The translations under genes were made by a program, and so were the position numbers. From Enterobacteria phage vB_EcoM_IME338, in sequence record MH051914: 64,000 nucleotides of DNA; one strand, written 5' to 3'. How positions within the stretch are numbered: the stretch's first letter is position 1; the number at the start of each line of letters is the position of its first letter. The notes beneath the pieces are model-generated. The model saw only the letters and a list, made by a program, of their open reading frames with translations, had not been told where the DNA came from and ran no database searches. Shown here one piece after another: positions 5,154 to 5,720 of the stretch.

Positions 5154-5160
5154 GTTTTGA

Positions 5161-5233
5161 CAGAAGACCAATTACAGCAAACTTAATCTTATTCATCTGA
5201 CACGAAATCGGACAAAGAAGAGATTTGGTCTGG
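5161..5233 (+). repeat. inter-tRNA hairpin element, copy 1 (CAGAAGACC...ACAGCAA...TTGGTCTGG)
   Basis: 5' agaccaa pairs with 3' ttggtct enclosing about 55 nt; conserved termini shared with copies at 5328 and 5634. Confidence 0.6.
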
Positions 5234-5244
5234 TCATTAAGAAT

Positions 5245-5321
5245 TGCGGGTATAGAGAAAGGGCGTCTCACATGTCTCATTAGCATGGTATCGGCAGGTT
5301 CGACTCCTGCACCCGCCTCCA
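5245..5321 (+). tRNA. tRNA with CAT anticodon (Met, fMet or Ile2 not resolved)
   Basis: Acceptor (t)gcgggt/acccgcc with unpaired position 1, D-stem gaga/tctc, anticodon stem catgt/gcatg loop ctcatta, T-arm gcagg-TTCGACT-cctgc, CCA. Confidence 0.5.
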
Positions 5322-5327
5322 ATTTTG

Positions 5328-5387
5328 CAGAAGACCGTATGCAGCAATAAACTACTTTTTGCGGATAAAAGAAAAAACACGGTCTGG
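5328..5387 (+). repeat. inter-tRNA hairpin element, copy 2
   Basis: cagaagaccgt...ATGCAGCAA...acggtctgg; terminal 7-bp complementarity agaccgt/acggtct. Confidence 0.6.
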
Positions 5388-5398
5388 CAACCTATTAA

Positions 5399-5472
5399 GG
5401 TTAGGAAGCACATGAGGTATGTGCGGTCGCCTGTTAAGCGAATGGCACAGGGTTCGAATCCCTGACTAACCG
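5399..5472 (+). tRNA. tRNA-Asn (anticodon GTT)
   Basis: Acceptor ggttagg/actaacc (6/7), D-stem gcac/gtgc, anticodon loop ctgttaa, T-arm caggg-TTCGAAT-ccctg. Confidence 0.6.
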
Positions 5473-5484
5473 CAAAATTTAAAT

Positions 5485-5572
5485 GTGTCGTTATCCCGTA
5501 GATGGTAGCGGTGGGGACTGTAAATCCCTTGTCATTGAGACTCGGTAGGTTCGACTCCTACACGGCACACCA
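5485..5572 (+). tRNA. tRNA-Tyr (anticodon GTA), long variable arm
   Basis: Acceptor gtgtcgt/acggcac, anticodon loop ctgtaaa, long variable arm, T-arm gtagg-TTCGACT-cctac, CCA encoded. Confidence 0.65.
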
Positions 5573-5633
5573 ATTTTGAGAGGGCTATTTAGCCCCTCCC
5601 TTAAAGGGTTCTTACGAGTATTCTTTAAAGGAG

Positions 5634-5707
5634 CAGAAGACCAAATACAGCAAGTTATTTAAAATTTCAAGCCAATTTAATTTTGAAAAATTTAAAACTT
5701 GGTCTGG
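5634..5707 (+). repeat. inter-tRNA hairpin element, copy 3
   Basis: cagaagaccaaATACAGCAAg...aacttggtctgg; terminal gaccaa/ttggtc complementarity; AT-rich interior. Confidence 0.6.
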
Positions 5708-5720
5708 CTCAACAAATTTA

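What the first reader, a model, noticed from the sequence alone, without database searches (positions are those of the whole stretch)
5154..5720. Family of repeated hairpin elements between tRNA genes (CAGAAGACC...ACAGCAA...GGTCTGG)
At least three copies (5161-5233, 5328-5387, 5634-5707) plus a variant (7554-7640) share a 5' CAGA(A/G)G(A/G)CC(A/G) and a 3' complementary (T/C)GGTCT(G) end that can form a terminal 6-7-bp stem around 45-70 nt, with a conserved ACAGCAA near the 5' side. Each sits right after a tRNA 3' end and 10-25 nt before the next tRNA. They are not tRNAs (no T-loop) and the overlapping ORF (5071..5322) is implausible. They could be small stable RNAs, processing signals or miniature mobile insertions.
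Basis: seen in the sequence. Interest (0 to 1): 0.65.

Follow-up and report, generated by a model that had tools for sequence, protein, structure and literature searches.

The report
Phage Y-RNA-like RNAs beside Ro60-like gene
The repeated hairpins between the tRNA genes of this Felix-O1-like phage are most likely four small non-coding "Y-like" RNAs, one carrying a circularly permuted tRNA-like domain. They are probably the unlocated RNA partners of the Ro60-like protein encoded just upstream, and the same protein-RNA pairing recurs in many unrelated phages.

Summary
The window (a Felixounavirus) holds four copies, at 5158-5236, 5325-5390, 5631-5710 and 5718-5854. The proposed "variant" at 7554-7640 is not a member.

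All copies share a covarying base: a 4-bp lower helix, an AGA/G internal loop, a helix starting AG, then U-N-CAGCAA exactly 10 nt after the loop. Copy 4 adds a V hairpin, a T arm, a closed acceptor-like hairpin and a D arm, which is the YrlA architecture.

A covariance model seeded on Felix-like copies finds the element next to DUF2828 genes in distant phages. The iterated model gave 93 of 94, at a median of 210 nt from the gene, with 0 hits in 686 kb of control contigs.

Best reading: a new Y-RNA family bound by a divergent phage Ro60. It is not in Rfam and lacks the canonical GNCGAA motif. A 2024 preprint noted that Bas63 gp130 is Ro60-like and guessed at Y RNAs, but did not locate them. RNA-protein binding remains inferred.

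The parts
3411..4826 (+). Gene for a 471-aa Ro60-like protein (Pfam DUF2828 + DUF7788; ortholog of Bas63 gp130), the proposed protein partner of the RNAs
4845..4965 (+). Two sigma-70-like promoters (4845-4873 and 4936-4965) between the Ro60-like gene and the tRNA/Y-like RNA array. These are consensus matches only.
   Evidence: One search gives 10/12 matches for each. The number found in the region is no higher than in shuffles, so this is only suggestive.
5158..5236 (+). Y-like RNA 1 (short form). Lower helix 5158-5161/5233-5236; loop AGA 5162-5164 / G 5232; upper helix 5165-5171/5225-5231; UUACAGCAA 5172-5180; apical imperfect hairpin.
   Evidence: R1 scores 62.4 bits, E 1.8e-10. The copy is present at the same site in Bas63, LTH02, SUSP2, Silverhawkium and L127.
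5325..5390 (+). Y-like RNA 2 (short form). Lower helix 5325-5328/5387-5390; loop AGA 5329-5331 / G 5386; upper helix 5332-5338/5379-5385; AUGCAGCAA 5339-5347.
   Evidence: R1 scores 63.7 bits, E 9.7e-11.
5631..5710 (+). Y-like RNA 3 (short form). Lower helix 5631-5634/5707-5710; loop AGA 5635-5637 / G 5706; upper helix 5638-5644/5699-5705; AUACAGCAA 5645-5653.
   Evidence: R1 scores 70.6 bits, E 3.2e-12.
5718..5854 (+). It has the same base: lower helix 5718-5721/5851-5854, loop AGA / G 5850, upper helix 5725-5731/5843-5849 with one A-C mismatch that is G-C in relatives, and CAGCAA at 5735-5740. This base encloses a permuted tRNA-like domain.
   Evidence: This copy was not in the seed of R1 yet was found at 40.8 bits, E 8.5e-6, and at 45.7 bits with R2. 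The MFE fold is a four-way junction.
5756..5771 (+). V hairpin of RNA 4 (UUUCU-CGGUAA-AGAAA), at the variable-arm position
   Evidence: Fold. Relatives have one extra loop nucleotide.
5776..5792 (+). T arm of RNA 4 (GAAGG-UUCGAUU-CCUUC)
5793..5810 (+). Closed acceptor-like stem-loop (AS) of RNA 4 (ACUCGGC-AGAU-GUCGAGU)
   Evidence: The change is compensatory in SUSP2 and Silverhawkium (ACACGU-UACG-GCGUGU).
5813..5827 (+). D arm of RNA 4 (GUGU-AAUGGUA-GCAC), preceded by U8-like UG

Best explanation
The four elements are genes for small non-coding RNAs of the Y-RNA type. They are transcribed with the tRNA array from the promoters downstream of the Ro60-like gene. They are probably released by the enzymes that mature the neighbouring tRNAs: RNase P at the 5' end of the next tRNA, and 3' trimming back to the helix.

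Their conserved base is the docking site for the phage Ro60-like ring protein encoded at 3411-4826. That base consists of a lower helix, an AGA/G internal loop, a helix beginning A-G, and single-stranded U-N-CAGCAA at a fixed 10-nt distance from the loop.

The variable apical part is the effector module. It is a plain hairpin in RNAs 1-3 (YrlB-like). In RNA 4 it is a tRNA-like L-shaped domain with a closed acceptor stem (YrlA-like).

By analogy with Rsr/Y RNA/PNPase and with Thermus phage phiLo Ro60, the RNAs would gate the protein or tether it to host RNA enzymes. This would serve phage RNA or tRNA quality control, or counter-defence.

Shown here: the structure, its covariation, the Ro60 fold of the neighbouring protein, and the genetic linkage across distant phages. 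Inferred: expression, processing, physical binding and downstream function.
For: 1. Structure and covariation. Across 50 distinct sequences, 92.7% of cells are paired, against 57% in shuffles and at most 46% when partners are slid. Ten of 11 pairs change on both sides. The four paralogs in the window already differ in compensatory fashion.
2. Invariant single-stranded U-N-CAGCAA, with A-G/C-U closing pairs and a 3' G.
4. Linkage. Model R1, seeded only on Felix-like, P778, L127 and L128 copies, finds 36 hits in 76 loci that encode DUF2828 proteins only 40-47% identical, all on the gene strand. The iterated R2 gives 93 of 94 on the gene strand, none inside the gene, 72 of 93 within 600 nt, median 210 nt, in 54 of 76 loci. 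R2 gives 0 hits in 686 kb of unrelated viral contigs.
5. The linkage holds where there are no tRNAs within the 4-kb flanks fetched (L196, L192, L168, L197, L185, L209, L166, L141, L144).
6. RNA 4 and at least 14 further elements have T arm, closed stem and D arm in the YrlA order, with covarying stems. Relatives of RNA 4 in other phages hit Rfam YrlA at 25-43 bits, E down to 2.7e-7.
7. The architecture matches the published YrlA description (PMC4201824).
8. Bas63 gp130, the ortholog, is reported as Ro60-like and as a counter to the Ppl defence, and its authors predicted unidentified Y RNAs among the tRNA genes (PMC11482910).
Against: - There are no expression or binding data for these RNAs.
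- The canonical Ro-binding motif GNCGAAN0-1G is absent.
- RNA 4 in the window does not hit Rfam YrlA even at E<=10.
- The protein is related to Ro60 only at the fold level: no TROVE Pfam hit and no PDB hit by sequence or profile.
- In the preprint, gp130 alone, without phage RNAs, rescued T7 on Ppl hosts. The RNAs are therefore not needed for that activity.
- The covariation counts were made on an alignment fitted to the model.
- R2 is not independent of the loci it was scored on. R1 is.
Confidence: 0.72

Rival explanations
1. The hairpins are processing or stability elements of the polycistronic tRNA precursor, such as RNase E/III/P guide structures or 3'-exonuclease blocks. They would have no dedicated protein partner and no life as free RNAs.
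For: They lie between tRNAs in this phage and its close relatives. Other unrelated hairpin families also fill spacers of the same array. Single-sequence folding z-scores are modest, -1.2 to -2.3.
Against: The same element flanks DUF2828 genes in phages with no tRNA within 4 kb, on the gene strand in 93 of 94 cases. An invariant single-stranded UNCAGCAA at a fixed register and a tRNA-like domain with a closed acceptor are not expected of mere cleavage signals.
Confidence: 0.1
2. The elements are cis-acting operator sites through which the DUF2828 protein controls its own or neighbouring transcripts (autoregulation), rather than trans-acting Y RNAs.
For: In distant phages most copies lie within a median of 210 nt directly upstream or downstream of the gene. 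They could therefore be part of its mRNA.
Against: In the window they are separated from the gene by two promoter-like sites and two tRNAs. Copies occur in tandem arrays of 2-5. Many carry elaborate tRNA-like domains, as known Y RNAs do.
Confidence: 0.1
3. The elements are decayed tRNA genes or tRNA-derived pseudogenes retained by chance in a fast-evolving tRNA array. LTH02's annotators placed a 'putative tRNA pseudogene' feature elsewhere in the same array.
For: RNA 4 contains tRNA-derived T and D arms. Copies 1, 2 and 4 share an internal ..CGGnnAAAGAA.. stretch, which suggests common descent. Gene content of the array varies among relatives.
Against: Compensatory substitutions keep every helix. 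The non-tRNA base module is the most conserved part. The elements persist across phages whose partner proteins are only 40-50% identical.
Confidence: 0.04
4. The elements are miniature mobile insertions (MITE-like or homing-related) that spread within tRNA arrays.
For: They have inverted-repeat ends and multiple copies. The array is a hotspot for HNH endonuclease insertions in relatives.
Against: There are only four copies, all in one 700-nt stretch and on one strand. No target-site duplications are visible at the flanks. The copies are only about 50-75% alike internally while their ends covary. Their positions are orthologous in relatives.
Confidence: 0.02

Closest known systems
Bacterial and mycobacteriophage YrlA / YrlB Y RNAs bound by Rsr (Ro60) (Chen et al. 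2014, PMC4201824; Rfam RF02553)
   Same: Both are encoded within about 1 kb of a Ro60-type ring protein gene and on the same strand. In both, the 5' and 3' ends pair into a stem that carries a conserved motif on the 5' strand. One RNA per locus has a V hairpin, a T arm, a closed acceptor-like stem and a D arm (YrlA), and it is accompanied by shorter RNAs that have only the stem module (YrlB).
   Different: The conserved motif is U-N-CAGCAA after an AG-start helix, not GNCGAAN0-1G. The Rfam YrlA model scores below its gathering threshold (25-43 bits in relatives, no hit for the window copy). The partner protein belongs to Pfam DUF2828/DUF7788, not TROVE. The RNAs are interleaved with tRNA genes.
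Thermus phage phiLo Ro60 with Yrl1/Yrl2 (NAR 2025, PMC12135203)
   Different: phiLo Ro60 is a recognisable TROVE protein, and its Yrls carry the CGAA motif and lie upstream of the gene. Binding and PNPase recruitment were shown there and nothing comparable has been shown here.
Bas63 gp130 (PhageMaP preprint, PMC11482910)
   Same: It is the orthologous protein in a sister Felixounavirus. It is reported as structurally Ro60-like, with the suggestion that Y RNAs hide among the downstream tRNA genes.
   Different: The preprint did not locate any RNA. It guessed that some annotated tRNAs are Y RNAs. The candidates found here are the unannotated spacers, not the annotated tRNAs.
Circularly permuted tRNA genes (Cyanidioschyzon merolae; my own knowledge, not tested here)
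   Same: The 3' part (T arm, acceptor 3' strand) precedes the 5' part (acceptor 5' strand, D arm) in the gene.
   Different: Here the acceptor stem is closed by a 4-6-nt loop that varies between relatives. There is no CCA and no sign of processing into a functional tRNA. The open end is the protein-binding stem.
Phage T4 stable RNAs C and D (species 1 and 2) in the T4 tRNA cluster (my own knowledge, not tested here)
   Same: They are small stable RNAs of unknown function, co-transcribed and co-processed with phage tRNAs.
   Different: No sequence or structural relation was examined, and T4 has no DUF2828 neighbour for them as far as I know.

Membership tests
Y RNA, YrlA type (Rfam RF02553; Chen et al. 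2014) | Encoded within about 4 kb of a Ro60 ortholog on the same strand | tested here: met
   The elements start 330-890 nt downstream of the Ro60-fold gene at 3411-4826, on the same strand. The same arrangement holds in 54 of 76 distant loci. Caveat: the protein is a fold-level relative of Ro60, not an annotated TROVE ortholog.
Y RNA, YrlA type (Rfam RF02553; Chen et al. 2014) | 5' and 3' ends pair to form the stem that holds the protein-binding site | tested here: met
   The two-part terminal helix has 92.7% of cells paired, and 10 of 11 pairs change on both sides. The MFE folds agree.
Y RNA, YrlA type (Rfam RF02553; Chen et al. 2014) | GNCGAAN0-1G motif near the 5' end | tested here: not met
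   The conserved 5' motif is A-AG-N5-N-U-N-CAGCAA. No GNCGAA is present in any of the four copies.
Y RNA, YrlA type (Rfam RF02553; Chen et al. 2014) | tRNA-like domain: V hairpin, T arm, closed acceptor-like stem-loop, D arm, in that order | tested here: met
   Met for copy 4 only: 5756-5771, 5776-5792, 5793-5810 and 5813-5827. The AS stem changes in compensatory fashion in SUSP2 and Silverhawkium. Copies 1-3 lack this domain and resemble YrlB.
Y RNA, YrlA type (Rfam RF02553; Chen et al. 2014) | Score at or above the Rfam gathering threshold (69 bits) | tested here: not met
   The window gives no YrlA hit at E<=10. Related elements in other DUF2828 loci score 24.7-43.5 bits.
Y RNA, YrlA type (Rfam RF02553; Chen et al. 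2014) | Physically bound by the Ro60/Rsr protein; carries tRNA modifications (psi55, D) | not testable with these tools
   This needs RIP or EMSA and modification mapping.
Ro60 / Rsr (TROVE + vWA) protein, for the partner gene | HEAT-repeat ring followed by a vWA domain with a MIDAS site | tested here: met
Ro60 / Rsr (TROVE + vWA) protein, for the partner gene | Sequence-level match to the TROVE domain (Pfam PF05731) or to solved Ro60 sequences | tested here: not met
   Pfam gives only DUF2828 and DUF7788. phmmer and a profile hmmsearch against PDB sequences find no Ro60.
tRNA | Cloverleaf with an open acceptor stem, an anticodon arm and a 3' CCA or discriminator end | tested here: not met
   ARAGORN and the Rfam tRNA model do not call any of the four. 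In copy 4 the acceptor stem is closed by a loop and the termini lie in the base helix.
Miniature inverted-repeat mobile element | Dispersed near-identical copies with terminal inverted repeats and target-site duplications | tested here: not met
   There are four copies only, all within 5158-5854 on one strand. The interiors are dissimilar. No flanking direct repeats are seen in the sequence.
Intrinsic terminator | GC-rich hairpin followed by a U tract | tested here: not met
   The terminator scan reports no site at the four elements on the + strand.

The most novel reading that the evidence does not exclude
DUF2828/DUF7788 proteins and the 'CAGCAA' RNAs form a previously undescribed, widespread phage ribonucleoprotein system that parallels Ro60/Y RNA. 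One protein-docking module (bulged helix plus UNCAGCAA) is grafted onto interchangeable RNA bodies: plain hairpins, circularly permuted tRNA-like domains with closed acceptor stems, and, in some phages, apparently chargeable tRNAs with open acceptor and CCA that carry the module in the anticodon region. The RNP would couple tRNA mimicry to counter-defence, since the Bas63 ortholog neutralises the Ppl system, or to surveillance of phage tRNAs attacked by host nucleases.
Probability: 0.45. Interest if true: 0.85.

Novelty: new variant of a known kind. Interest (0 to 1): 0.72.

Why it matters
Ro60/Y RNA particles are conserved from bacteria to humans, where they are lupus and Sjogren autoantigens, yet their functions remain poorly understood. 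Known phage examples are few: mycobacteriophages, CcrColossus, Bacillus phage G and Thermus phiLo.

Here a much larger phage protein family that sequence methods label only as DUF2828 turns out to be Ro60-shaped. It comes with its own RNA family and a different recognition motif. That gives a second, independent solution for comparing how a Ro ring reads an RNA.

The ortholog in Bas63 is already known genetically as a counter to the Ppl defence, and its authors predicted unidentified Y RNAs. Locating the candidates makes that hypothesis directly testable in a tractable E. coli or Salmonella phage by deleting or mutating four short elements.

It also matters for annotation. These spacers are unannotated or covered by spurious ORFs in hundreds of Felixounavirus genomes. 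In addition, tRNA-like chimeras in related phages may be mis-called as tRNAs.

Tried and rejected
- Rfam at gathering and at E<=10 thresholds: no family for the four elements. This includes ribozymes, which rules out known self-cleaving motifs as an explanation for the conserved ends.
- Exact-pattern scan of IMG/VR with CAGAAGACCNNNNNCAGCAA. It mostly returned chance single matches plus a few Felix-like contigs, so it was useless for distant relatives. The chance loci were later reused as a negative control.
- Aeromonas phage APT65 matched only a tRNA and is not an Ounavirinae relative. Dropped.
- A hand-written helix/motif descriptor was too permissive at first. At a summed helix length of at least 10 it gave 54 plus-strand against 17 minus-strand hits, some inside coding sequence. 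I used it only to find seeds and relied on covariance models for statistics.
- Sequence and profile searches of the protein against PDB and NCBIfam found nothing. Only structure comparison revealed Ro60.
- The supplement of Chen et al. 2014 (YrlA seed alignment) is not held, and the Sim et al. 2020 review is not held.
- Reading copy 4 as a split or permuted tRNA gene that matures into a functional tRNA was considered and rejected. The acceptor loop varies (AGAU versus UACG tetraloop) with compensatory stem changes, no CCA is encoded, and the open end is the conserved base helix.
- The 7554-7640 'variant' was tested and rejected as a member.

Full report
**Context.** The window is a Felix-O1-like myovirus. 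Region 4800-8100 matches 290 phage records, mostly Felixounavirus, at 80-99% identity. ARAGORN finds 22 tRNA genes on the + strand between 4992 and 8994.

**Checking the observation.** The 5' motif CAGAAGACCNNNNRCAGCAA occurs at 5161, 5328 and 5634 (exact) and at 5721 (one mismatch). With up to 3 mismatches there are 6 matches against 1.24 expected, and no shuffle reaches 6. Each copy is followed 40-110 nt later by GGTCTGG. The repeat is therefore real, but there are four copies, not three plus a variant.

Reading the sequence and the MFE folds refines the anatomy:
- a 4-bp lower helix that differs in every copy (TGAC/GTCA, TTGC/GCAA, GAGC/GCTC, TTAC/GTAA);
- an asymmetric internal loop (5' AGA, 3' G);
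- a 7-bp upper helix AGACCNN/NNGGTCT whose two inner pairs covary (AA/TT versus GT/AC);
- three nucleotides, then CAGCAA.

The fourth copy (5718-5854) encloses, in order:
- a hairpin (5756-5771);
- a textbook T arm GAAGG-TTCGATT-CCTTC (5776-5792);
- a closed 7-bp hairpin ACTCGGC-AGAT-GTCGAGT (5793-5810);
- UG and a D arm GTGT-AATGGTA-GCAC (5813-5827).

In other words, it is a circularly permuted tRNA-like body whose acceptor stem is capped and whose open end is the shared base helix.

The proposed variant at 7554-7640 is a stable hairpin conserved among close relatives (z -2.9). Covariance models of the family do not match it, even with filters off at E<=10.

**Conservation.** All four copies sit at the same places in Bas63 and LTH02, and in the sister genera Suspvirus (SUSP2) and Mooglevirus (Silverhawkium). 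At least the first three are present in contig L127. In all, 238 phage records carry at least 80% of the 5154-5860 block.

In SUSP2 and Silverhawkium the capped stem of copy 4 reads ACACGT-TACG-GCGTGT instead of ACTCGGC-AGAT-GTCGAGT. This is a compensatory replacement with a different loop. It argues for a closed helix rather than a tRNA acceptor end that is later opened.

In Yersinia phage P778 the upper helices read GGACTGT/ACAGTCC, GGATTC/GAATCC and GGACTC/GAGTCC, each followed by T(T/A)(A/T)(T)CAGCAA.

**The neighbour.** The gene ending 330 nt before the first element (3411-4826, 471 aa) is Pfam DUF2828 + DUF7788 and PHROG 850 'RNA-binding protein'. Sequence and profile searches against PDB sequences and NCBIfam find nothing.

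An AlphaFold2 model built on 36 homologs (pLDDT 88.5, pTM 0.88) gives the following matches:
- All 11 significant Foldseek PDB hits are Ro60 proteins: Xenopus and human Ro60, Deinococcus Rsr and Thermus phage phiLo Ro60, with E 3e-8 to 2e-6 and TM up to 0.65.

The MIDAS DxSxS triad is invariant in the family, and six of 36 members weakly hit Pfam vWA_Ro60. The protein is thus a fold-level Ro60 relative, not a sequence-detectable TROVE protein.

**Comparison with Y RNAs.** Ro60 and Rsr bind Y RNAs. Chen et al. 2014 describe bacterial and mycobacteriophage YrlA as follows (PMC4201824):
- a stem formed by the 5' and 3' ends, with a conserved 5'-strand motif;
- then a V hairpin, a T arm, a closed 'acceptor' stem-loop and a D arm;
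- encoded within about 4 kb of the Ro60 gene on the same strand;
- accompanied by shorter YrlB-type RNAs that share only the stem motif.

Copy 4 has exactly this order of modules, and copies 1-3 look like the short type.

The differences are also clear. The canonical motif GNCGAAN0-1G is absent. The Rfam YrlA model (RF02553, gathering score 69) does not hit the window copy at E<=10.

**Is the RNA linked to the protein or to tRNA arrays?**
- I fetched DUF2828 loci from other phages. In a 143-kb phage contig (L128; protein 51% identical), the gene is followed immediately by a promoter-like site and five elements. Two are short and three have T arm, capped stem and D arm. All have a bulged base helix followed by (T/A)TACAGCAA or TTCCGCAA. 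One of them hits Rfam YrlA over the full model at 40.9 bits, E 2.7e-7.
- Covariance model R1 was seeded on 12 short copies from Felix-like phages, P778, L127 and L128. It recovers exactly the four window copies, including copy 4, which was not in the seed (E 8.5e-6).
- In 76 loci whose DUF2828 proteins are only 40-47% identical to the query, R1 finds 36 matches at E<=1. All 36 are on the strand of the gene.
- The iterated model R2 finds 94 matches, 93 of them on the gene strand. They fall in 54 of 76 loci, with none inside the gene, 72 within 600 nt of it, and a median distance of 210 nt.
- In 686 kb of unrelated viral contigs, which by selection even contain the 5' motif, R2 finds nothing at E<=1.
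- Nine of the positive loci have no tRNA gene within the 4-kb flanks. The element therefore travels with the gene, not with tRNAs.

**Family features.**
- On the 50 distinct sequences aligned to R1, 92.7% of cells pair, against 57% in column shuffles and at most 46% when partners are slid. Ten of 11 pairs show changes on both sides. The caveat is that this alignment was fitted to the model.
- Invariant or nearly invariant positions are the A before the upper helix, its first two pairs A-U and G-C, the U two nucleotides before CAGCAA, CAGCAA itself, and the G opposite the 5' loop.
- The distance from the internal loop to CAGCAA is 10 nt in almost all copies inspected.
- Fifteen of 40 long elements parse as T arm, capped stem, 1-2 nt, then D arm, with widely different stem sequences. 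Several of these score 25-43 bits against Rfam YrlA. Other long elements carry non-tRNA inserts.

**Mechanism proposed.** The four RNAs are made from the tRNA operon. Two sigma-70-like sites lie at 4845-4873 and 4936-4965, although these are weak evidence. The RNAs would be trimmed by the tRNA maturation machinery and bind the Ro60-like ring through the conserved base module. Their apical parts would gate the ring or tether it to other factors.

This last step rests on analogy with Rsr/Y RNA/PNPase (PMC4201824) and with phiLo Ro60, whose Y-like RNAs bind host PNPase and attenuate it (PMC12135203).

A functional hint comes from the PhageMaP preprint (PMC11482910). Bas63 gp130, the ortholog of the window protein (bas63_0130), counters the Ppl defence and was noted to be Ro60-like. 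The authors suggested that some annotated tRNAs might be Y RNAs. They did not identify any. Moreover, gp130 alone sufficed in T7, so the RNAs are not required for that particular activity and may instead be regulators.

I found no paper that describes these elements or links DUF2828 to Y RNAs. A Listeria phage study speculates similarly about an HHpred-level Rsr homolog and abundant ncRNAs (PMC12282133).

**Verdict.** It most likely marks a new Y-RNA family paired with a divergent, widespread phage Ro60-like protein. What is shown is structure, covariation, the protein fold and genetic linkage. What is inferred is expression, processing, binding and function. It is not a member of Rfam YrlA by score or by motif, but it works like one in architecture and genomic context.

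Noticed in passing
window 5852-5998 (+): A 147-nt, very stable multibranched hairpin lies immediately after Y-like RNA 4 (MFE -48.3 kcal/mol, z -6.0). It is conserved in Bas63, SUSP2, Silverhawkium and L127, with compensatory changes in the long closing stem. An inner hairpin (about 5953-5971) has a covarying stem and a conserved 9-nt loop CUUAAGCAA, which echoes the AGCAA of the family motif. It may be a further ncRNA or another binding site. The family models do not match it.
   Followed up: partly
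window ~6700-6786 (+); also L126 ~10412-10498: A tRNA-like gene that ARAGORN does not call. It has a good acceptor stem, a T arm and a 3' GCCA, but an aberrant D region and an oversized 'anticodon' loop CUUCCAACA (8 nt, CUUCCAAA, in Yersinia phage P778). The array has no tRNA-Trp, and CCA lies in this loop.
   Followed up: no
It shares the 10-mer GAAGACCGTA with copy 2 but is not matched by the family models. It could be a decayed copy embedded in another structure.
   Followed up: partly
window 5598-5632, 6444-6478, 7885-7910, and larger 7052-7141 (+): A second, unrelated family of spacer hairpins of the form CTTAAAGRGTTCTTACGAG...CTTTAAAGG occurs within the tRNA array. Its function is unknown; it may mark processing sites.
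   Followed up: no
L162 5895-6015 and 6025-6137; L128 7569-7678: In other DUF2828 phages there are apparent tRNAs with an open acceptor stem and encoded CCA (Rfam tRNA 41-57 bits, 110-121 nt). They carry a capped hairpin followed by UAUUCAGCA or UUACAGCA inserted between the D arm and the anticodon region. This is the non-permuted counterpart of the YrlA-like form.
   Followed up: partly
window 5573 region versus L002 1144-1221: This phage lacks the tRNA-Asp that Bas63, LTH02, SUSP2 and Silverhawkium carry between tRNA-Tyr and Y-like RNA 3. Relatives also differ by HNH endonuclease and small-ORF insertions in the array.
   Followed up: no
window 39987-40270 (-) and 56675-56999 (+): Two group I introns score above the Rfam gathering threshold (62.2 and 55.9 bits).
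   Followed up: no
window 2958-3329 (+): A 123-aa DUF5681 gene sits directly upstream of the Ro60-like gene. The same pairing is seen in P778 (L126) and L127, so it may be a third component of the module.
   Followed up: no
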